DNA of 64,000 nucleotides from Beijerinckiaceae bacterium. Lineage in GTDB: Bacteria > Pseudomonadota > Alphaproteobacteria > Rhizobiales > Beijerinckiaceae. The position numbers were made by a program, and so were the translations under genes. The notes under the pieces are model-generated. The model made no database searches, was not told the origin of the DNA, and saw only the letters and a list, made by a program, of their open reading frames with translations. The stretch spans positions 114,030-178,029 of the forward strand of contig WSYC01000012.1 of NCBI GenBank assembly GCA_009773635.1. The letters run 5' to 3'. Positions 22,335-55,092 of this stretch are shown here, in pieces; the first letter of the stretch is position 1, and the number at the start of each line of letters is the position of its first letter.

Positions 22335-22727
22335 ATGAATGACGCCCGCTGTTTCTGGTGTTCTTTTTTCATGGTCCTAAGCCCCTATGCGGTTGCTCAG
22401 GCTGAAGTGCCCAAATTGCTTCTGTGTGCTTGGGACATGACAATGGAAGACGACACTCATGCTCACGGAACAGGGTGGAGACTAAAAATTGACAACGAGC
22501 ACAAACAGCTTTTTGGCCTAGGAGAAGCCCCCGCGAAAATAAAATCTCAATCCTCCAGTGAAATCACGTTTGAGGGTGAACGTGTTTTCAAAGGGAGGAT
22601 CATCGAAAATTTCGTGGGGAGTCTTTTGCCTAATGGTCGCGGCACGGTTCGTTTCAAGGAAACAACTGGGATGGATCAAAGACGGGGAACTTACTTGTTG
22701 TATTGCAAGCCCGATCTAGTCCCCTAA
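22335..22727 (+). CDS. Low-GC hypothetical secreted protein (ORFan-like)
   Basis: 130 aa, signal-like N-terminus ending AVAQA, Cys near each end of the mature part. Hand-counted GC is about 46% (138/300 over 22441-22740). Confidence 0.6.
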   Translation: MNDARCFWCSFFMVLSPYAVAQAEVPKLLLCAWDMTMEDDTHAHGTGWRLKIDNEHKQLFGLGEAPAKIKSQSSSEITFEGERVFKGRIIENFVGSLLPNGRGTVRFKETTGMDQRRGTYLLYCKPDLVP

Positions 22728-31158: not shown

Positions 31159-31259
31159 AAAAAAAAGGATCGCCGGAGCGATCCTGAATAAAGTCCAACA
31201 GGGAGGCGTCAAACAGAGCAGCAGGAGCCACTCGGGATCCGGCGAACCGGAACGCCCAT
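31159..31259 (-). ncRNA. Candidate trans-acting sRNA with anti-SD loop and intrinsic terminator
   Basis: Three hairpins on the minus strand: UCCGG-uucg-CCGGA; GUUUGAC-GCCUCCCU-GUUGGAC; GGAUCGC-uccg-GCGAUCC followed by U8. No credible ORF. Confidence 0.65.
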
Positions 31260-31277
31260 CGTTTTAAACCAAAGGCC

Positions 31278-31292
31278 TTAACGAGACGTTAA
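31278..31292. promoter_or_regulatory. Perfect CtrA box
   Basis: TTAA-cgagacg-TTAA, about 20 nt upstream of the candidate sRNA. Confidence 0.8.
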
Positions 31293-31374
31293 GTTCGTAC
31301 AATTTTCATCAAATGCATGGTATTTTCGCCCATGTTGCTGATTTGCTCGCGAAATCCGCACATGCCCCCGAAAT

Positions 31375-36129: not shown

Positions 36130-36287
36130 TGCGGGGCTGCGGAATGCGGCAGGTTATACGTATTCCCCGGGGCCTTAACAATCCCTAGGGAGCTGTACCT
36201 ATCCGGACCCGTGGGTCCGGGTACACGGCGCCCACCTACTTATGTAGGTTCCCGGGATCGACACTCCACCGGTTCTGTGGCTCCGCA
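36130..36287 (+). ncRNA. ssrS: 6S RNA
   Basis: Downstream of zapA. Terminal pairing gcggggctgcgg/ctgtggctccgc. Central alphaproteobacterial 6S motifs ccccggggcc...agggagctg...ggcgcccacctacttatgtagg..cccggg; about 158 nt. Confidence 0.9.
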
Positions 36288-42502: not shown

Positions 42503-42542
42503 ATGACGCGCTGACCGCGGTTTCATGACACGACATTGACAA
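42503..42542 (-). promoter_or_regulatory. Pho box (PhoB site) upstream of phnD
   Basis: Minus strand TTGTCAA-tgtc-GTGTCAT with a third half-site GCGTCAT 22 nt further on, giving 11-bp phasing. Confidence 0.7.
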
Positions 42543-42550
42543 GGCTCTCC

Positions 42551-42955
42551 ATGGCACGAGCAACCCTCCCCCTCCGCATCTACTACGAGGACACGGATTT
42601 CTCCGGCTTCGTCTATCACGCGCGCTACCTGCATTTTTTCGAGCGCGGGCGCACGGAGGCCCTGCGTGCCCTTGGCATCGACCAGCGCGCGCTGTTCGAG
42701 GCAGAGGGCGGGCCGCAGAGCTTCGTCGTCCGCGCCATGAGCATCGACTTCAAAAGCCCCGCCCGCATGGATGACATGGTGGAGGTCGAAACCCGCGTCA
42801 CCGAGATCGGCGGCGCGACGATCGGAATGCGTCAGACGCTCGCGCGCGGCGCGGAGGTGCTGGCCACAGCCGATGTCACCATCGCTTTCCTCGGCAACGG
42901 CAAACCAAAGCGGTTGCCTCACGCGATGCGCGAAAAATTTGCTGCATTGCAGTAA
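42551..42955 (+). CDS. ybgC: Tol-pal-associated acyl-CoA thioesterase
   Basis: RIYYEDTD.SG.VYHA.YL.FFERGRTE. Confidence 0.93.
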   Translation: MARATLPLRIYYEDTDFSGFVYHARYLHFFERGRTEALRALGIDQRALFEAEGGPQSFVVRAMSIDFKSPARMDDMVEVETRVTEIGGATIGMRQTLARGAEVLATADVTIAFLGNGKPKRLPHAMREKFAALQ

Positions 42956-43050: not shown

Positions 43051-43217
43051 AAGGGTTGATTGATGGAATGGCTTGGGTTCGATCCTCCGTGGTCGCGCCC
43101 CGTTCGGGTTTGATGCCTCAGTTTGGTCGCAAAACCGGATCAAGAGCCACCATCACAAGGGGTTTACCCCGCGCCGACCGGGTGATCACGCCGCAACCCC
43201 GGACAGAAGGACCAGAG

Positions 43218-43934
43218 ATGCCGCACTCAGACGTTGCCACCGATCTTTCGCTCGTATCGCTCTTTCTCAACGCCCACTTCATCGTGAAGCTGGTGATGCT
43301 GGGGCTGGCGGGCGCGTCGGTCTGGTCCTGGGCCATCATCATCAACAAGTCGATCATGCTGCGCGCGATGAAAGCGCGGATGGACGAGTTCGAGGACACT
43401 TTCTGGTCCGGCCAGAGCCTCGACGAGCTCTATCGCTCGCTCGCCAACAAGACGACGGACGGGTTCGCGGCGCTGTTCATGGCGGCGATGGGCGAATGGC
43501 GCCGCGCTTTCGAAGGTTCGGGCCGCGGCTTTGCCAGCCTGCAGACCCGCATCGACAAGGTGCTCGATGTCTCAATCAGCCGCGAAGTCGAGCGGCTTGA
43601 ATCCAAGCTGCTGGTGCTCGCGACCATCGCCTCGGTCGGCCCCTACATCGGGCTTTTCGGCACGGTTTTCGGCATCATGACCACTTTCCGCTCGATCGCG
43701 GCGTCGAAGAACACCTCGCTGGCGGTTGTCGCACCCGGCATCGCCGAAGCGCTGTTCGCGACCGCCATCGCGCTGGTGGCGGCGATCCCCGCCAACATTC
43801 TCTACAACAAGTTCGTCAAGGACGTTTCGCGCACGCAAGGCCGCCTCGAAAGCTTCGCGGATGAGTTTTCCGCCATCCTCTCGCGTCAGATCGACGAACG
43901 CGCCGGGCAGGCTGGCCCGCGCAACGTCGCCTGA
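43218..43934 (+). CDS. tolQ: Tol-Pal system protein TolQ
   Basis: S+WSWAII+.K, GPYIGLFGTV.GIM, VAPGIAEAL.ATA; ATG 43218 after GAAGGA. Confidence 0.96.
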   Translation: MPHSDVATDLSLVSLFLNAHFIVKLVMLGLAGASVWSWAIIINKSIMLRAMKARMDEFEDTFWSGQSLDELYRSLANKTTDGFAALFMAAMGEWRRAFEGSGRGFASLQTRIDKVLDVSISREVERLESKLLVLATIASVGPYIGLFGTVFGIMTTFRSIAASKNTSLAVVAPGIAEALFATAIALVAAIPANILYNKFVKDVSRTQGRLESFADEFSAILSRQIDERAGQAGPRNVA

Positions 43935-43946
43935 GGGGTACCGCAC

Positions 43947-44393
43947 ATGGCGATGGCAATGAACGCAGGAGGGGGAAGCGGCAAGCGCCGGCGGGGCAAG
44001 CGCTCGGCGCCGATGGCCGATCTCAACATGATCCCCTTCATCGACGTGATGCTGGTGCTCCTCGTGATCTTCATGGTCGCGGCGCCGTTGCTGACGACCG
44101 GCGTGCCGGTGGACCTGCCAAAAACCGGCGCGAGCCAGCTCAACATCGAGCAGAAGCCACTGGCCGTGACGATCGACGACAAGGGCGTGATCAAGCTGCA
44201 GGAGAAGGAAGTCAGGCTCGAAGCGCTGGCTGCCGAGATTACCGCTATCGCCAAGCAGGGCTTTGACGAGCGCATCTACGTGCGCGGCTCGGCGCAGGTC
44301 GAATACGGCAAGGTCGCAGCGGTGATGGGCGTGCTGCAGAAGGCCGGCTATACCAAAATCGGGCTGATCCACGCGCCCGCGACGACGAAGTAA
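43947..44393 (+). CDS. tolR: Tol-Pal system protein TolR
   Basis: +N+.PFIDVMLVLL+IFMV.AP+...V.VDLP. Confidence 0.95.
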   Translation: MAMAMNAGGGSGKRRRGKRSAPMADLNMIPFIDVMLVLLVIFMVAAPLLTTGVPVDLPKTGASQLNIEQKPLAVTIDDKGVIKLQEKEVRLEALAAEITAIAKQGFDERIYVRGSAQVEYGKVAAVMGVLQKAGYTKIGLIHAPATTK

Positions 44394-44407
44394 GGAGGCA
44401 ACGCCCG

Positions 44408-45571
44408 GTGGCGATCGACCTTCGCGGCACTGTGAAGCGGTTCCTCGACTGGCGTCAGCCGGGGGGCGCGCTGTCGGTCGGGGCGCATACGCTGCTCCTC
44501 GTTGCGAGCGTCTATGCCTTCAATTCCGCGCAGCCGTTCCAGCCGGCGACCGAGGCGCTTGCGGTCGATGTCGTCTCGGAAAAAGATTTCAACGAGATGA
44601 TGAAGGGCGACAAGACCTCGAAAATCATCGCCAAGGAACCCGAGCGCCGCGTCGACCGCGTGGCGGAAATCAAGGATGACAAGGACCCCGGCGTTGAGAA
44701 GAAGGACGTGCCCGTCGCCCCCTCGAAGCAGGAGGCGAAATCCGAGCCCGAACCGAAACTTGCCGCCATCGTGCCGCCGACGCGCCCGCCCGAACTGCGC
44801 GTGACGCCGCCAACGCCCAGCCCGCCGGTGAAGGCCGAGGAAGACGACGAGATCGACGAGAAGGCCGAATTGTTGCGCCGGAAGAAGATCGAGGATCAGA
44901 AAAAGGCCGAGGATGCTGCCAAGGCGGCGGCGGAGGCCAAGCGCAAGCTCGATGAGAAACTGAAGGCGGACGCGCAGGCCAAGGCAGCCGAGGACAAGAA
45001 GAAGCTTGATGATGCCCTGAAAGCCGAGGCGGAGGCTGAAAAACGCGCCGAGGACAAGCGCAAGGCCGACGAGAAGAAGGCGCGCGAAGACAAGGCGAAG
45101 AAGGAACAGGCCGCGAAGGAAGCAGCAGAGGAAAAGGCGCGCAACGACCGCATCCGGAATGTCCTCAATCAATCGAAAGAGCCGGCGGCCTCAACGGGCG
45201 CGACCGGGGCTGCTGTTGCAAGCCGGTCAACGGCGGGGACTGCGACCGCGACAGGAACCAAATTGTCGCCAAGTCAGCTTGGACAGCTCGGTGAGATTCT
45301 CAAAGAACAGATGGAGAGATGCCTCTCCGTTCCGTCGGGCATAAATCCCAAAACAAAGCCGATCGCGCTGATCTATTTCAATAGAGATGGGACACTTTCC
45401 GGTGCTCCGATCTTGCAGAACAGCTCCGCCGAGCCAGCATTTCGAGTTCTCGCAGAGGCCGGTATTCGTGCTCTGCGACAATGTCAGCCTTACAAAGTTC
45501 CTGATCGCTTCATGAGTGCCTTCGAACAGTGGAAGGTCACCACCATCTTCATCTCGCGTCCCGACAATTGA
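44408..45571 (+). CDS. tolA: Tol-Pal system protein TolA
   Basis: N-terminal TM with S...H motif, Lys/Glu/Ala-rich helical domain, C-terminal domain with a C...C pair; position between tolR and tolB. Confidence 0.9.
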   Translation: MAIDLRGTVKRFLDWRQPGGALSVGAHTLLLVASVYAFNSAQPFQPATEALAVDVVSEKDFNEMMKGDKTSKIIAKEPERRVDRVAEIKDDKDPGVEKKDVPVAPSKQEAKSEPEPKLAAIVPPTRPPELRVTPPTPSPPVKAEEDDEIDEKAELLRRKKIEDQKKAEDAAKAAAEAKRKLDEKLKADAQAKAAEDKKKLDDALKAEAEAEKRAEDKRKADEKKAREDKAKKEQAAKEAAEEKARNDRIRNVLNQSKEPAASTGATGAAVASRSTAGTATATGTKLSPSQLGQLGEILKEQMERCLSVPSGINPKTKPIALIYFNRDGTLSGAPILQNSSAEPAFRVLAEAGIRALRQCQPYKVPDRFMSAFEQWKVTTIFISRPDN

Positions 45572-45604
45572 TTTAATGGCCACCCCCAAGATGAGCATCA
45601 CGCC

Positions 45605-46948
45605 ATGAACCGCCCGTTCCAGCTCTTCCGCCCTGTGTTGTTCGCGTTGGGTTTGATCGCCGCGCTGGTTGCGCCGCTCTACATCGCCGGAGAGGCGCAG
45701 GCACAGGCCGGCTGCCGCGCCGGGGAGCTCTGCATCGATCTCAACCCGCGCAATTTCAAGCCGATGCCGATCGCGATTGTCGATTTCGGCGGGGATACGC
45801 AGGGGCCGCAGGTCAGCCAGATCATCGCGGCGAATTTGAAGCGCTCCGGCGTCTTCGAGCCCATCGACCCCGCCCGCCACCCCGAGCGCGGGCTTGGCTT
45901 CGATGCCGTCCCGAATTTTGCCGCCTGGCAACAGGCCGGCGCGCAGGCCATCGTGACCGGCCGCGTGGTGCGTGACGGCGCGCGCATGGCCGTGGAATAT
46001 CGTCTCTGGGATGCGACCGCCGGCAAGCAGATCGTCGGGCAGAAACATGCGATCGACCCCCAGAACTGGCGCCGCCTCGCGCATCTCGCGTCCGATGCGG
46101 TCTACGAGCGCATGACCGGCGAGACCGGTTTTTTTGACACCCGCATCGTCTTTGTCGACGAGACCGGCCCGAAGGAAAAGCGCAAGAAGCGCCTCGCGAT
46201 CATCGATCAGGACGGGGCTAATTTCCGCGCGATCTCATCGGGCAATGAAACCCTGCTGACCCCGCGGTTCTCGCCGCGCGGGGATCGCGTCGCCTTCATG
46301 GCGCTCGATGATTCCGGCCGCGCCAACGTGCAGGTGCTGGACCTCGGCTCGGGCCGGCGCGCGGTGGTCGGCGGCAATGCGACGAGCTTCTCGCCGCGTT
46401 TCGCACCGAACGGGGCGCAGCTCGCGCTCAGCGTCGAGAGCGCGGGCAACACCAATCTGGCGATGGCGGATATTGCGTCGGGCGCCATCCGCCCGCTGAC
46501 CTCCGGCGGCGCGATCGACACCGCGCCATCCTTTTCGCCGGATGGCGGGCAGATCGTGTTCGAGAGCGATCGCGGCGGCGGCCAGCAGATCTACATCATG
46601 GGCGCGGATGGCTCCGGCGCACGACGCATTTCCTTCGGAGAAGGCCGCTATTCAACGCCGGTGTGGTCGCCGAAGGGGGATTACATCGCCTTCACCCGCC
46701 AGAAGGGCAACACCTTCGCCATCGGCATCATGAAGCCGGATGGCTCGGGCGAGCGCATCCTCACCGAAGGGTATCACAACGAAGGCCCGAGCTGGGCGCC
46801 GAACGGGCGCTACATCATGTTCTTTCGCGAAGCGGGCGCAGGGCCGAAGCTGTTCATGGTCGATGTCACCGGGCGTGTTGATGTGCAAATCCCGACGCCG
46901 GCTTTCGCGTCCGATCCGGCGTGGTCGCCACTGCTGTCGGCGAAATGA
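45605..46948 (+). CDS. tolB: Tol-Pal beta-propeller protein TolB
   Basis: PIAI.DF, FDTRI.FV.E.G, repeated P.FS/WSP.G propeller blades. Confidence 0.97.
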   Translation: MNRPFQLFRPVLFALGLIAALVAPLYIAGEAQAQAGCRAGELCIDLNPRNFKPMPIAIVDFGGDTQGPQVSQIIAANLKRSGVFEPIDPARHPERGLGFDAVPNFAAWQQAGAQAIVTGRVVRDGARMAVEYRLWDATAGKQIVGQKHAIDPQNWRRLAHLASDAVYERMTGETGFFDTRIVFVDETGPKEKRKKRLAIIDQDGANFRAISSGNETLLTPRFSPRGDRVAFMALDDSGRANVQVLDLGSGRRAVVGGNATSFSPRFAPNGAQLALSVESAGNTNLAMADIASGAIRPLTSGGAIDTAPSFSPDGGQIVFESDRGGGQQIYIMGADGSGARRISFGEGRYSTPVWSPKGDYIAFTRQKGNTFAIGIMKPDGSGERILTEGYHNEGPSWAPNGRYIMFFREAGAGPKLFMVDVTGRVDVQIPTPAFASDPAWSPLLSAK

Positions 46949-46951
46949 CCC

Positions 46952-47053
46952 CGTGACAAGCGGCATGATCGGGGCTACGGCTGCGGCCAATGCCCGGCCT
47001 GCGAGCTGCGCGCGAACGGTTTTTCGCGGTATCTGGCACTGAGGCAGCGTTGA
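46952..47053 (+). pseudogene. queC: 3'-terminal relic of 7-cyano-7-deazaguanine synthase
   Basis: Translates [33 protein letters not shown], matching the QueC C-terminal Zn motif (H.WGYGCG.CPAC.LR..G). No start codon and the upstream ~200 aa are absent. Confidence 0.8.
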
Positions 47054-47115: not shown

Positions 47116-47682
47116 ATGACGACAATCGAGAACTTGCGCCGCCGCGAAGGAATTCTGTTCCTCATCGCCTTCACCGCCTGCGTGCCTGCTGCCAACTGGT
47201 TGATCCAGAATGTCGGCACCTTCTGCGTCCCGAACGGTCCCTGCCTCATCCCCGTCGCACCGGGTTTGACTGCCCCAAGCGGTGTGCTGCTGGTCGGTAT
47301 CGCGCTGGTGCTGCGCGATCTCGTGCAGCGGCGGCTGGGGTTGAACTGGGCCTTTGCGGCCATCGCTTTGGGTGGGCTTCTCTCGGCGCTCTTCGCCCCG
47401 CCGGCGCTGGTGGTGGCGTCCGTTGCCGCATTCCTGCTGTCGGAAATCGTCGATCTCATGGTGTTCACGCCGTTGCAGCGGCGCGGGCCGGTGGTGGCTG
47501 CGGTCGTGAGCAGCCTTGTCGGGCTCGTAGTCGACAGCATCGTGTTTCTCTGGCTGGCCTTCGGCGGGCTTGAGTTTCTCACCGGGCAGATCGTCGGCAA
47601 GGCGCTGATGGTGCTGATCGCCATCCCCGTTCTCGCCTGGATCCGCACGCGCGATGCAAGGCTGGGGATTGCACCAGCTTGA
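47116..47682 (+). CDS. VUT family (YhhQ-like) queuosine-precursor transporter
   Basis: G..LVLRD.VQ..LG, AS..AFL.SE..D..VF..L, S..VG..VDS..FL.LAFG; multi-TM. Confidence 0.82.
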   Translation: MTTIENLRRREGILFLIAFTACVPAANWLIQNVGTFCVPNGPCLIPVAPGLTAPSGVLLVGIALVLRDLVQRRLGLNWAFAAIALGGLLSALFAPPALVVASVAAFLLSEIVDLMVFTPLQRRGPVVAAVVSSLVGLVVDSIVFLWLAFGGLEFLTGQIVGKALMVLIAIPVLAWIRTRDARLGIAPA

Positions 47683-47892
47683 GTCGACGACCGGAATTCA
47701 ACGAAATTTCAAGACTTTGTTCACCATTCGCCGCAAAGTCGCCACGCATGGCGCCTCTATTGGGCGTTGAACATGCTTGACGGAAGCTTTCGTTAATCCA
47801 ACGGAATTTAAGAAATTCTCAAGGGGCGAGTTCAACAACACCGGATCCATCCGGGGTTGCATGACGTTCGTTCATTCGAAGGAGTATCTGGG

Positions 47893-48387
47893 ATGGTTCC
47901 CGCATTTTTCACCGCGCGCGTCTCGCGCTTCGCCGCCATCATGCTGGTTGCCGGGCTTCTGAGCGCCTGCGCTTCCAAGACCGATCCGAATGTTGATGGC
48001 GCCGGAGGGCCCAACACGCCGGGATCGATCCAGGATTTCGTCGTCAACGTCGGTGACCGCGTGTTCTTCGATTCCGATTCCTCGGAAATCAACAGCGCCG
48101 GGCAGGCAACGCTCGACAAGCAGGCGCAGTGGCTCAACCAGTATCCGCGCTATTCCTTCACGATCGAAGGCCATGCGGACGAGCGCGGCACGCGCGAATA
48201 CAACTTCGCGCTGGGTGCGCGCCGCTCCGAATCGGCCAAGAACTATCTGATCGCACGCGGCGTCGGGGCCAATCGCATCCGCACGACGTCGTTTGGCAAG
48301 GAGCGCCCGGTCGCGGTCTGCAATGACATCTCGTGCTGGTCGCAGAACCGGCGTGCGGTGACGGTGCTCGGCGGGGCCGGGGGCTGA
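47893..48387 (+). CDS. pal: Peptidoglycan-associated lipoprotein
   Basis: Lipobox LSAC, VGDRVFF..DS, EGHADERGTREYN.ALG.RR, QNRRA. Confidence 0.97.
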   Translation: MVPAFFTARVSRFAAIMLVAGLLSACASKTDPNVDGAGGPNTPGSIQDFVVNVGDRVFFDSDSSEINSAGQATLDKQAQWLNQYPRYSFTIEGHADERGTREYNFALGARRSESAKNYLIARGVGANRIRTTSFGKERPVAVCNDISCWSQNRRAVTVLGGAGG

Positions 48388-48462: not shown

Positions 48463-49386
48463 ATGGTCAGGATGATCCGCTTCTCTCGTGCTGCATTCAC
48501 GCTCATCGCCCTTTTCGTTGGGGCGATGCAGTGTGTCACGATCGCCCGTGCGCAGGATGCTGCGGATTTCATCCTCCGGCTCGACCGGCTGGAGGCGGAA
48601 AACCGTCGCCTCACCGGGCAGGTCGATGAGTTGAAATTTCAGCTCAGACGGCTTGAAGATCAAATCAAGCGCTTCCAGACCGATTCGGATACGCGCTTCC
48701 GCGATCTCGAAGGCAATCGGGGCGGCATCCGGCCTGCCCCCAATGCCGGCCAGCCCGTACCGGGTCCGGTCACGCCGCAGAAGCGGTCCGATGCGTTCGA
48801 TCCTGCCACGTCAAATACAGCGCCCGGCGCACCCCGCCCGCTCGGTTCGACCGGCGTCGCCACGCCGCCCGGCGCTCCTCTGTCGGCCGGCACCCTGCCG
48901 CCCGGTGGTCGGCTGGTACAGGATGGTGAACTCGGCGCGCCGCTCGATGTTTCCGGCCAGCGGCGCCCGCCTGTCCCGCCGCCGGTGACGGATATGCCAC
49001 GCGGCGATGCCAAATCGGACTTTGATTTCGCCAAATCCCTCGTCGATCGCGGCGATTACGAACTCGCGGAAGGGGCTTTCAAGGATTACATGCGCACCTA
49101 CCCGAAGGACCGGCGCGTCCCCGATGCCACGTTCTGGCTCGGCGAGAGCTATCTGCGGCGCACGCGCTACCGCGAAGCTGCAGAACATTTCCTGACGGTC
49201 ACCAGCAAATATTCCAATGTGCCCAGAGCCCCGGAGGCGATGCTCAAGCTCGGCATTTCCCTGCGCGGTCTTGGCGCGATCCAGGAAGCCTGCGGCACCT
49301 TCGCGCAGGTCGGCAAGAAATATCCCAATGCATCGGCTGCCATCAAGCAGGCGGTCGAGCGCGAGAGGGGCCGGGCACAGTGCTAG
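48463..49386 (+). CDS. cpoB: Tol-Pal protein YbgF/CpoB
   Basis: Signal peptide, coiled coil, TPR domain with A.FWLGESY and APEAMLKLG.SL. Confidence 0.93.
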   Translation: MVRMIRFSRAAFTLIALFVGAMQCVTIARAQDAADFILRLDRLEAENRRLTGQVDELKFQLRRLEDQIKRFQTDSDTRFRDLEGNRGGIRPAPNAGQPVPGPVTPQKRSDAFDPATSNTAPGAPRPLGSTGVATPPGAPLSAGTLPPGGRLVQDGELGAPLDVSGQRRPPVPPPVTDMPRGDAKSDFDFAKSLVDRGDYELAEGAFKDYMRTYPKDRRVPDATFWLGESYLRRTRYREAAEHFLTVTSKYSNVPRAPEAMLKLGISLRGLGAIQEACGTFAQVGKKYPNASAAIKQAVERERGRAQC

Positions 49387-54958: not shown

Positions 54959-55043
54959 GTTGTCGGGTGAACAGAAGAAATTTCGTCTTCCTCACCGCGG
55001 GCGATTGCTTTTTCTCCGCAACAGGCGTAGCTCCATCGGCGGG

Positions 55044-55092
55044 ACATCTCCCCCCAACGGGAGGCGCCCATCTGTAAGGATGGAGATCACAG
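55044..55092 (+). promoter_or_regulatory. serC leader RNA motif (putative cis-regulatory element)
   Basis: CUCCC-ccaac-GGGAG, GCGC linker, CCAUC-uguaag-GAUGG overlapping the RBS. This matches the recalled two-hairpin alphaproteobacterial serC element. Confidence 0.65.

What the first reader, a model, noticed from the sequence alone, without database searches (positions are those of the whole stretch)
45185..45540. TolA C-terminal domain is a low-GC patch, suggesting receptor-domain swapping
Within one intact ORF, hand-counted GC falls to about 53% (158/300 over 45241-45540) from about 62-65% in sampled upstream tolA windows. The patch has a run of A/T-ending and rare codons (AGT, CTT, GGA, ATT, AGA, ATA, AAT, ACA, AAA), and host-like codons resume at about 45535. 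The patch coincides with domain III, which in E. coli is the surface hijacked by filamentous phage g3p and group A colicins. A recombinational replacement of just this domain would be a phage- or bacteriocin-evasion mechanism acting on a core envelope gene, which I do not recall being described in Rhizobiales.
Basis: partly seen in the sequence, partly recalled or inferred. Interest (0 to 1): 0.66.

Follow-up and report, generated by a model that had tools for sequence, protein, structure and literature searches.

The report
Swapped receptor domain in tolA
The last third of the core envelope gene tolA, the periplasmic domain that filamentous phages and colicins hijack in E. coli, has been replaced here by a foreign, lower-GC version, and close relatives carry at least three other versions at the same spot.

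Summary
The low-GC patch is real. GC3 falls from 0.81 to 0.57, and rare codons rise from 4/269 to 25/118. It is one allele of a modular replacement of TolA domain III.

Two contigs from the same lineage (L003, L004) match the window at 94-100% DNA identity across tolQ, tolR, tolA domains I-II and tolB. From 45214 to 45580 identity is only 47%. An unbiased breakpoint scan and contig joints in other metagenomes both place the breakpoints at 45213/45581. Synonymous divergence is 0.14-0.27 in the flanks and saturated (2.6) in the patch.

Thirteen orthologues, L003 among them, keep host-like GC3 in domain III (0.71-0.86), so low GC is not intrinsic to the domain. Trees for the N-terminal part and for domain III disagree.

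The patch still folds as a confident TolA-III domain (pLDDT 91; TM 0.65-0.77 to solved TolA-III). Independent assemblies reproduce the mosaic.

At least four allele classes occur across public metagenomes. A second Rhizobiales lineage shows the same swap, there together with the TolB N-terminus.

No donor, phage or plasmid source was found. Phage or bacteriocin evasion is plausible but untested.

The parts
42536..42955 (+). ybgC-like thioesterase, first gene of the tol-pal cluster
   Evidence: Pfam 4HBT, E 8e-17. It holds the same position in relatives.
43218..43934 (+). tolQ. The likely start is the ATG at 43218, giving 238 aa as in relatives; the mechanical ORF starts at 43056.
   Evidence: Pfam MotA_ExbB, E 3.5e-32. 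Relatives encode 238-aa products. DNA identity to L003 is 95-98%.
43947..44393 (+). tolR
   Evidence: Pfam ExbD, E 4e-27. DNA identity to L003 is 93-100%, apart from a short divergent patch at about 44170-44235.
44408..45571 (+). tolA, an intact 387-codon ORF with a GTG start
   Evidence: TIGR02794 tolA_full scores 83.4 bits against a cutoff of 59.45. The AF2 model has a TM helix, a long helix at residues 155-256 and a C-terminal alpha/beta domain.
44408..45213 (+). Resident part of tolA: the membrane anchor, the Pro-rich segment, helical domain II and the first part of the linker
   Evidence: DNA identity is 94% to L003 and L004; protein identity is 94-97%. GC3 is 0.807. dS is 0.14 and dN 0.018 against L003.
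45214..45580 (+). Replaced segment. It covers the second half of the disordered linker, all of TolA domain III, the stop codon and 9 nt of the intergenic spacer.
   Evidence: Identity to L003 and L004 is 47%. The best two-breakpoint partition is 45213/45581 (LLR 261). Contigs of runs X4, X5 and X10 join 45213 to 45581 with 382 other letters in between. GC3 is 0.568. dS is 2.6. This sequence was found only in runs of one study, plus a roughly 94% variant in X6.
45260..45568 (+). TolA domain III fold (residues 285-387). Helices are at 288-305, 343-358 and 366-375; strands are at 319-324, about 330-336 and 377-381.
   Evidence: The domain-only AF2 model has pLDDT 90.7 and pTM 0.79. Foldseek matches TolA-III structures 1lr0, 4g7x_B, 6s3w, 2x9a_B and 3qdr_A at TM 0.56-0.77. 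Family-invariant core residues are kept: C305, C359, P361 and W375.
45398..45400 (+). Codon 331 (Ser), polymorphic within the source population (S331F)
   Evidence: P0001 differs from the window protein only at this residue. The exact window protein is P0270.
45605..46948 (+). tolB
   Evidence: Pfam TolB_N and PD40. DNA identity to L003 is 95%; dN is 0.002 and dS 0.21.
45704..45748 (+). Predicted mature N-terminus of TolB (QAGCRAGELCIDLNP), the inferred TolA-III-binding box. It is not replaced in the window. It is replaced together with domain III in L004 and in L020/L021.
   Evidence: The box is identical in the window and L003. L004 has SGCAEGRLCIDL and L001 has NCGPGTLCIDL. The L004 replaced segment runs to about 45730. 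The role of the box is inferred from PDB 6s3w, TolAIII bound to a peptide from the TolB N-terminus (title).
46952..47038 (+). Remnant of queC (last 29 codons), a deletion scar next to the tol genes
   Evidence: tblastn gives 76% identity to QueC residues 206-234. Relatives carry an intact queC here.
47857..48387 (+). pal (OmpA-family lipoprotein)
   Evidence: Pfam OmpA, E 1e-21.
48463..49386 (+). cpoB/ybgF (TolA-binding TPR protein)
   Evidence: Pfam TolA_bind_tri and TPR families.

Best explanation
The patch is an imported allele of TolA domain III.

Shown: a tolA gene otherwise typical of this Rhizobiales lineage (related to Beijerinckiaceae) had its last 118 codons, its stop codon and 9 nt more (45214-45580) replaced by the homologous segment of a very divergent tolA with lower GC. 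One crossover lies in the conserved Gly/Ser/Thr/Ala-rich linker. The other lies at the conserved tolB ribosome-binding site and start. A complete structural module was therefore exchanged in frame.

Shown: the new module keeps the TolA-III fold and the invariant core residues. It stays next to an unchanged TolB, so TolA very probably still works in the Tol-Pal machine.

Shown: the same spot carries at least four allele classes in relatives with near-identical flanks. In L004 and in a second lineage (L020/L021) the exchanged piece also includes the TolB signal peptide and N-terminal box. That box is encoded directly downstream and, by analogy with solved complexes, is the TolA-III ligand.

Inferred: the polymorphism is kept by selection from agents that must dock on TolA-III in the periplasm, such as filamentous phages or Tol-dependent bacteriocins. 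A swapped domain would remove their docking surface while preserving envelope function.
For: Divergence profile:
- DNA identity to L003 is 94.2% over 43680-45213, 47.3% over 45214-45580 and 95.3% over 45581-46930 (Fisher p 1.6e-115).
- The likelihood scan picks 45213/45581.
- Independent contigs in runs X4, X5 and X10 show a joint at exactly 45213->45581.
- dS is 0.14-0.27 in the flanks and 2.6 in the patch. For L003 against L004 it is 0.03 in the flanks and saturated in the patch.

Composition:
- GC3 is 0.568 in the window's domain III and 0.415 in L004's.
- It is 0.788 in L003 and 0.71-0.86 in the other twelve orthologous loci.
- The CAI-like index falls from 0.727 to 0.375.

Phylogeny:
- In ordinary pairs domain III is more conserved than the N-terminal part: N >= 0.9 gives domain III 0.93-1.0.
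- Window-P0002 is 0.97 against 0.47.
- NJ trees place the window's domain III outside its own clade.

Not an assembly artefact:
- A 2395-bp Logan contig spans both junctions with 0 differences.
- The exact protein is carried on three differently named contigs (an ENA k119 contig, a Logan contig and a 211-kb contig held by NCBI among other sources).

Fold retained: pLDDT 90.7, and Foldseek hits TolA-III structures.

Several alleles in nature.

Second lineage: L020 and L021 have flanks at 88-97% and domain III plus the tolB 5' end at 45-57%. GC3 in L020 domain III is 0.585 against 0.75 upstream.

The beta-strands are the most diverged elements: beta1 is 0/6 identical to the family consensus and beta3 plus tail 17%. 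Colicin A binds TolA by beta-strand addition (PMC3365938). Colicin N and g3p compete with TolB for one site on TolA (PMC4339652).
Against: - No donor was identified. The best match to the window's domain III among 1.84 billion representative proteins is 49% identical.
- Nothing turned up in phage, plasmid or viral-contig collections.
- The selective agent is unknown. No Tol-dependent phage or bacteriocin is known for this organism and none was looked for in the source metagenomes.
- All evidence comes from metagenome contigs, not isolates.
- The window's allele sits next to an unchanged TolB box, so continued function is inferred, not shown.
- The L004 allele rests on a single 1586-bp contig.
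Confidence: 0.8

Rival explanations
1. The exchange is real but its cause is not parasite evasion. It could be a neutral or hitch-hiking import in a recombination-prone region. It could also be a replacement selected for compatibility with TolB, Pal or other envelope partners.
For: - The neighbourhood shows other events: a short divergent tolR patch, a queC deletion and domain II repeat differences in L004.
- In L004 and in L020/L021 the TolB N-terminus changes together with domain III. This looks like co-transfer of an interacting pair.
- No phage or bacteriocin evidence was obtained.
Against: - The breakpoints respect the domain boundary in three independent events (window; L004; L020/L021). 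The same module is hit each time.
- The rest of tolA and tolB is under strong purifying selection (tolB dN 0.002).
- At least four allele classes persist across many habitats.
- In the window, the TolB box did not change.
Confidence: 0.35
2. Low GC and odd codons are an intrinsic feature of TolA domain III, set by amino-acid composition or expression constraints. The feature would be inherited vertically and shared by orthologues.
For: Domain III has a different amino-acid composition from the Ala/Lys/Glu-rich domain II, and GC1 and GC2 also shift.
Against: - Thirteen orthologous loci, L003 among them, have domain III GC3 of 0.71-0.86, similar to their N-terminal parts.
- L003, the closest relative, has 0.788.
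- Domain III DNA is well conserved among resident-type orthologues, but the window deviates.
Confidence: 0.02
3. The patch is a metagenome assembly chimera that joins domain III of another organism into this contig.
For: The window derives from a metagenome, and both junctions lie in conserved sequence where assemblers can switch.
Against: - The Logan unitig-based contig of run X1 spans 43900-45850 with 0 mismatches at uniform depth.
- Contigs from X2, X3 and X21 cover the junctions or the patch.
- The identical protein is found on an ENA k119 contig, on the Logan contig and on a 211-kb contig held by NCBI among other sources.
- A chimera would need another tolA sharing >=31-mers on both sides, which would itself be a closely related genome with a different domain III.
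Confidence: 0.03
4. Domain III diverged in place, through targeted hypermutation (for example a diversity-generating retroelement) or through extreme positive selection.
For: Variation is confined to a C-terminal ligand-binding domain, as in DGR targets.
Against: - No second copy or template repeat of the patch exists anywhere in the 64-kb window.
- Synonymous sites are saturated (dS 2.6 against 0.14-0.27), and the change extends past the stop codon.
- GC3 shifts wholesale.
- Divergence covers framework residues, not a subset of adenine-templated positions.
Confidence: 0.02

Closest known systems
TolA domain III of E. coli, V. cholerae and P. aeruginosa (PDB 2x9a, 1tol, 4g7x, 3qdr, 6s3w, 1lr0)
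   Same: The predicted alpha/beta fold is the same (TM 0.56-0.77). So are the position at the end of a TM-anchor, long-helix, globular-domain protein and the tolQRAB-pal operon context.
   Different: Sequence identity is only 14-19%. In those species the domain is described as a fixed hub. TolA is reported as uniform among P. aeruginosa strains (PMC7549136), and E. coli variation is described for the domain II repeat tract (PMC3477136). Here the whole domain exists as several very different alleles within one lineage.
Mosaic alleles of phage and bacteriocin receptor genes and other antigenic loci, made by homologous recombination (outer-membrane porins, TonB-dependent receptors, pilins, pbp mosaics). 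This comparison rests on general knowledge.
   Same: The signature is the same: sharp breakpoints in conserved flanks, saturated divergence inside, atypical GC, several alleles in one population and tree incongruence.
   Different: The target is a periplasmic domain of a core inner-membrane-anchored protein, not a surface-exposed loop or protein. The exchanged unit can include the partner's binding motif (the TolB N-terminus), because that motif is encoded immediately downstream.
Intragenic tandem-repeat variation of E. coli tolA (PMC3477136)
   Same: Both are natural intragenic polymorphism in tolA.
   Different: The E. coli case is copy-number change of repeats in domain II by slippage. Here it is replacement of domain III by divergent homologous sequence.
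Diversity-generating retroelement targets
   Same: Variation is concentrated in a C-terminal binding domain.
   Different: No template repeat is present in the window, and synonymous sites and framework residues are also replaced. It is not a member.

Membership tests
TolA (cell envelope integrity protein, TIGR02794) | Match to the full-length equivalog HMM above its curated cutoff | tested here: met
   TIGR02794 scores 83.4 bits against a cutoff of 59.45, over residues 21-376.
TolA (cell envelope integrity protein, TIGR02794) | N-terminal membrane anchor with conserved Ser/His, followed by a long helical domain II | tested here: met
   S23 and H27 are invariant in 37 homologues. The AF2 model has helices at 21-40 and 155-256.
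TolA (cell envelope integrity protein, TIGR02794) | C-terminal domain with the TolA-III fold | tested here: met
   The domain model has pLDDT 90.7. The top eight Foldseek PDB hits are all TolA-III entries (1lr0, 4g7x_B, 6s3w, 2x9a_B, 3qdr_A, 3qdp, 1s62, 6fw4) at TM 0.56-0.77.
TolA (cell envelope integrity protein, TIGR02794) | Position between tolR and tolB in a tolQRAB-pal cluster | tested here: met
   Pfam hits on the flanking genes are MotA_ExbB, ExbD, TolB_N/PD40, OmpA and TolA_bind_tri.
TolA (cell envelope integrity protein, TIGR02794) | Pfam domain annotated on homologues (PF27683) | not testable with these tools
   PF27683 is absent from the local Pfam copy. P0031, which carries it in the precomputed table, also gives no hit.
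Recombinant (mosaic) allele made by homologous replacement | Abrupt, statistically supported change of divergence against close relatives | tested here: met
   Identity is 94-95% in the flanks and 47% in the patch (Fisher p 1.6e-115). The breakpoints are at 45213/45581. The same joint appears in other runs.
Recombinant (mosaic) allele made by homologous replacement | Phylogenetic incongruence between the segment and the rest of the gene | tested here: met
   NJ trees of residues 1-130 and 285-387 disagree. Pair analysis agrees.
Recombinant (mosaic) allele made by homologous replacement | Synonymous divergence elevated in the segment, which excludes selection alone | tested here: met
   dS is 2.6 in the patch and 0.14-0.27 in the flanks.
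Recombinant (mosaic) allele made by homologous replacement | Identified donor lineage | tested here: not met
   The best hit among 1.84e9 representatives is 49% identical. No phage, plasmid or viral source was found. The word-index search was uninformative because it did not recover even the window's own protein.
Receptor domain under parasite-driven diversifying or balancing selection | Several divergent alleles coexisting in natural populations with near-identical flanks | tested here: met
   There are at least four allele classes across about 15 runs. Run X6 holds window-type, L003-type and another allele together.
Receptor domain under parasite-driven diversifying or balancing selection | A phage or bacteriocin shown to use the domain in this organism, with allele-specific sensitivity | not testable with these tools
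   This needs cultures and experiments. [quoted passage not shown]
Diversity-generating retroelement target | Template repeat near the variable region and adenine-specific substitutions | tested here: not met
   No second copy of the patch was found by blastn or tblastn in the 64-kb window. The replacement includes synonymous sites and the stop codon.

The most novel reading that the evidence does not exclude
TolA domain III, alone or together with the adjoining TolB N-terminal box, behaves as an exchangeable cassette in environmental Rhizobiales. Highly divergent, low-GC alleles circulate by homologous recombination anchored in the conserved linker and the tolB start. They are kept as a balanced polymorphism by filamentous phages or Tol-dependent bacteriocins that must dock on this periplasmic hub. 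This would be a resistance strategy that changes the parasite's docking surface on a core machine without losing the machine.
Probability: 0.35. Interest if true: 0.8.

Novelty: new member of a known kind. Interest (0 to 1): 0.62.

Why it matters
Tol-Pal is a core envelope machine, and TolA-III is its periplasmic hub. In the model organisms it is treated as conserved, and it is the obligatory docking point for Ff, IF1 and CTXphi phages and for group A colicins.

Whole-domain allelic replacement of this hub, recurring in two lineages and sometimes co-transferring the TolB ligand motif, has two implications. First, even a periplasmic interaction domain of a core gene can be modular and exchangeable in nature. 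Second, it gives a testable natural system for asking how much of TolA-III is needed for Tol-Pal function and how much is free to vary under parasite pressure. It also points to undiscovered Tol-dependent phages or bacteriocins in groundwater and sludge Rhizobiales.

Practically, it warns that tolA and tolB 5' regions are unreliable phylogenetic markers, and that low-GC patches inside core genes can mark domain-level horizontal transfer.

Tried and rejected
- The word-index protein search with domain III alone found nothing, not even the window's own protein. It is uninformative rather than negative.
- The genome-contig scan with a single protein returned only two distant loci. The metagenome scan returned nine, none at species level.
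- tblastn of domain III against the phage and plasmid collections gave only weak partial hits (<=38% identity).
- IMG/VR scans with the window and L004 domain III found nothing. Foldseek against BFVD found nothing significant. There is therefore no evidence for a phage-borne donor or decoy.
- A search for a second copy, silent cassette or DGR template in the window was negative.
- Pfam gives no domain for this TolA, and PF27683 is missing from the local library.
Allele typing in other runs therefore had to rely on joints and 30-nt loose ends relative to the window.
- Greedy ORF picking for a GC3 null distribution was contaminated by shadow ORFs of this high-GC genome. I used only ORFs with overall GC3 >= 0.73 for the comparison.
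- Cluster look-up of the nearest domain III representatives gave no organism names.
- Three literature searches found no report of TolA-III allelic replacement.

Full report
**Locus.** The finding lies in a canonical tol-pal cluster. The order is ybgC (42536-42955), tolQ (43218-43934), tolR (43947-44393), tolA (44408-45571), tolB (45605-46948), a Vut_1/YhhQ-like gene (47116-47682), pal (47857-48387) and cpoB (48463-49386). The 387-aa product of 44408-45571 passes the TolA equivalog model TIGR02794, at 83.4 bits against a cutoff of 59.45. Homologues named by their sources are TolA of Beijerinckiaceae, Rhabdaerophilum, Methylobacterium, Microvirga and Bosea.

**The observation.** The hand count is exact: 158 G+C in 45241-45540 (52.7%), against 63.8% in the first 269 codons and 63.2% for the window. 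The drop is mainly at third positions. GC3 is 0.807 upstream and 0.568 in codons 270-387. A CAI-like index built on the neighbouring tol-pal genes falls from 0.727 to 0.375. Rare codons number 25 of 118 in the patch and 4 of 269 upstream. Among ORFs of the window with overall GC3 >= 0.73, no other has a 118-codon stretch below 0.65.

**What it is.** The two closest homologues in public data (P0002 at 81% and P0003 at 78% overall) are 94-98% identical to the window's TolA over the first ~270 residues. They have quite different C-terminal domains, and all three differ from each other.

Their contigs are L003 (4033 bp) and L004 (1586 bp), from other metagenomes. They match the window at 94-100% DNA identity through tolQ, tolR, tolA domains I-II and tolB. 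From 45214 to 45580 identity is 47%.
- A likelihood scan over all two-breakpoint partitions picks 45213 and 45581 (LLR 261). Fisher's test of patch against flanks gives p = 1.6e-115.
- Contigs in three other runs (X4, X5, X10) show a joint 45213->45581 with 382 unrelated letters in between.
- Synonymous divergence is 0.14 (tolA N-terminal part), 0.27 (tolR) and 0.21 (tolB), but 2.6 in the patch.
- For L003 against L004 it is 0.03 against saturation.

Saturated synonymous sites, a boundary 9 nt beyond the stop codon and the GC3 shift exclude divergence in place. They indicate replacement by a homologous but very distant sequence.

**Which allele is foreign.**
- L003's domain III is 86-88% identical to that of relatives whose N-terminal parts are only 68-77% identical, and it has host-like GC3 (0.788). 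It is the resident type.
- In ordinary pairs domain III is more conserved than the rest of TolA. Pairs with N-terminal identity >= 0.9 have domain III identity 0.93-1.0.
- The window's domain III is 42-53% identical to every one of the other 36 aligned homologues, and P0003's is 42-58%.
- In NJ trees the three proteins form a tight clade for residues 1-130. For residues 285-387 only P0002 stays there. P0003 and the window sit on long branches outside, the window with distant TolAs whose N-terminal parts are basal.
- GC3 of domain III is 0.71-0.86 in thirteen orthologous loci, L003 among them. It is 0.568 in the window and 0.415 in L004.

**Anatomy of the exchange.**
- The left crossover (codon 269/270) lies in a Gly/Ser/Thr/Ala-rich linker. 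AF2 predicts it to be disordered (pLDDT < 50 for residues 261-282) and its sequence is conserved in the family.
- The right crossover lies at the conserved tolB ribosome-binding site and start. A whole structural module was therefore exchanged.
- L004 has other breakpoints relative to L003. The left one is at about 45276, the start of the first helix of domain III. The right one is at about 45730, inside tolB.
- The L004 segment carries a new TolB signal peptide and a changed mature N-terminus: SGCAEGRLCIDL instead of the family-wide GCRAGELCIDL.
- By analogy with PDB 6s3w (TolAIII bound to a TolB N-terminal peptide; title), this is the TolA-III ligand. It is encoded immediately downstream of domain III, so both sides of the interface can move as one ~0.5-kb piece. 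The role of the box here is inferred.
- In the window the TolB box is unchanged.

**Function retained?**
- The ORF is intact.
- Family-invariant residues (M302, C305, G311, P314, P318, G328, N338, E350, A351, R354, A355, R357, C359, P361, W375) are kept.
- AF2 models the domain at pLDDT 90.7 and pTM 0.79.
- Foldseek's top hits are all TolA-III: P. aeruginosa 1lr0, V. cholerae 4g7x_B (with CTXphi pIII), 6s3w, E. coli 2x9a_B (with IF1 g3p), and 3qdr/3qdp (colicin A study). TM is 0.56-0.77.
- The elements most changed relative to the family consensus are the beta-strands (beta1 0/6 identical; beta3 plus tail 17%) and helix 3. Helix 1 and the Cys-Gln-Pro-Tyr loop are the best kept.
- Published work shows colicin A binding TolA by beta-strand addition (PMC3365938). 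It also shows colicin N and g3p competing with TolB for one site (PMC4339652).

This pattern fits variation of docking surfaces, but it is only suggestive.

**Not an artefact.**
- A Logan contig of run X1 covers 43900-45850 without a mismatch at even depth. X2, X3 and X21 add supporting pieces.
- The exact protein occurs on an ENA k119 contig (52 kb), the Logan contig and a 211-kb contig held by NCBI among other sources.
- A sister sequence (P0001) differs by one residue, S331F, inside domain III.

**Population picture.** The 5' 800 bp of tolA is found in at least 20 runs from 14 studies: groundwater, sludge, wastewater, bioreactors and sediment. The patch is found as near-identical words only in four runs of one groundwater study. 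Junction typing gives these classes:
- window type in X1, X2, X3 and X21, plus a ~94% variant in sludge run X6;
- L003 type in X4, X5 and X10, and matching ends in X6, X8, X9, X17 and X18;
- L004 type in X11;
- a fourth left end (GGTTGTCAACACGCGC...) in X7 and X13, from two studies;
- a further right end in X6.

**Generality.** Among 118 full-length homologues, other pairs combine similar N-terminal parts with discordant domain III. One pair was checked at DNA level. L020 and L021 (JGI metagenomes, a different Rhizobiales lineage) are 88-97% identical across tolQ-tolR-tolA(I-II) and tolB. They are 45-57% identical over domain III, the spacer and the tolB 5' end. L020's domain III has GC3 0.585 against 0.75 upstream, and the TolB N-termini differ. 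P0026 (L001) is a weaker third candidate.

**Source of the allele.** No donor was found.
- The exhaustive HMMER search of 1.84 billion representatives gives 802 hits, the best at 49% identity.
- No silent copy or DGR template lies in the window.
- Phage, plasmid, IMG/VR and BFVD searches are negative.

The donor is an unsampled lineage with lower GC, or a long-lived allele pool.

**Mechanism and cause.** Shown: homologous replacement of a complete domain, repeated independently with different breakpoints, giving several coexisting alleles of a fold-conserving module in a gene otherwise under purifying selection. Inferred: selection by agents that dock on TolA-III. I put about 0.35-0.4 on that cause. 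The main rival is neutral or partner-compatibility-driven exchange in a recombination-prone neighbourhood. That neighbourhood also shows a short tolR patch, a queC deletion scar and a domain II repeat difference.

**Comparison with the known.** Mosaic receptor genes made by recombination are a familiar kind. I found no report of this for TolA-III. A P. aeruginosa study explicitly notes the uniformity of TolA among strains (PMC7549136). E. coli tolA variation is described for the domain II repeats (PMC3477136). I therefore file this as a new member of a known kind, with one unusual feature: the partner's binding motif can travel with the domain.

Noticed in passing
window 46952-47038: queC is deleted in this lineage. 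Only the last 29 codons remain directly after tolB (76% identity to QueC residues 206-234). Relatives, including the closest one (L003), carry an intact queC between tolB and the Vut_1/YhhQ-like gene.
   Followed up: partly
window 44170-44235 (tolR codons ~75-97): A short patch of high divergence from L003 (23 differences in 60 nt) sits inside an otherwise 95-100% identical tolR. GC3 is normal (0.89). It is probably a second, smaller recombination tract from a closer donor.
   Followed up: partly
window 45398-45400 (TolA codon 331): A sister sequence from an ENA assembly (P0001) differs from the window's TolA by a single residue, S331F, in a loop of domain III. The X2 Logan contigs also break about 10 nt upstream of this codon (45387/45388).
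   Followed up: partly
L020 ~2440-2925 vs L021: A second, unrelated Rhizobiales lineage shows the same modular discordance. TolA domain III, the spacer and the TolB signal peptide and N-terminus are 45-57% identical between contigs that are 88-97% identical elsewhere. The variant allele again has low GC3 (0.585).
   Followed up: yes
L004 (window-equivalent 45581-45730) and L001: The otherwise invariant TolB N-terminal motif GCRAGELCIDLNP is altered exactly in the genomes whose TolA domain III is aberrant. L004 has GCAEGRLCIDL and L001 has NCGPGTLCIDL. The window's motif is unaltered.
   Followed up: partly
window 44980-45050 vs L004: L004/P0003 also differs from the window and L003 in a block of the Ala/Lys/Glu repeats of domain II. 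This recalls the tandem-repeat variation described for E. coli tolA.
   Followed up: no
window 22336-22727: This is the lowest-GC stretch of the window (44.7%). It is a small ORF with an apparent signal peptide (MNDARCFWCSFFMVLSPYAVAQA...), lodged between pgk and fba. It looks like an inserted orphan gene.
   Followed up: no
window 36131-36287 (+), 31160-31299 (-), 55037-55088 (+): Rfam matches above gathering score: 6S RNA, the alphaproteobacterial sRNA BjrC1505 (which explains the low-GC dip near 31 kb) and a serC leader.
   Followed up: no
proteins P0125, P0139, P0127, P0132: The exhaustive search returned short stand-alone TolA-III-like proteins (about 120 aa) and proteins with two TolA-III-like stretches. 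They could be fragments, or free-standing or duplicated domain III genes.
   Followed up: no
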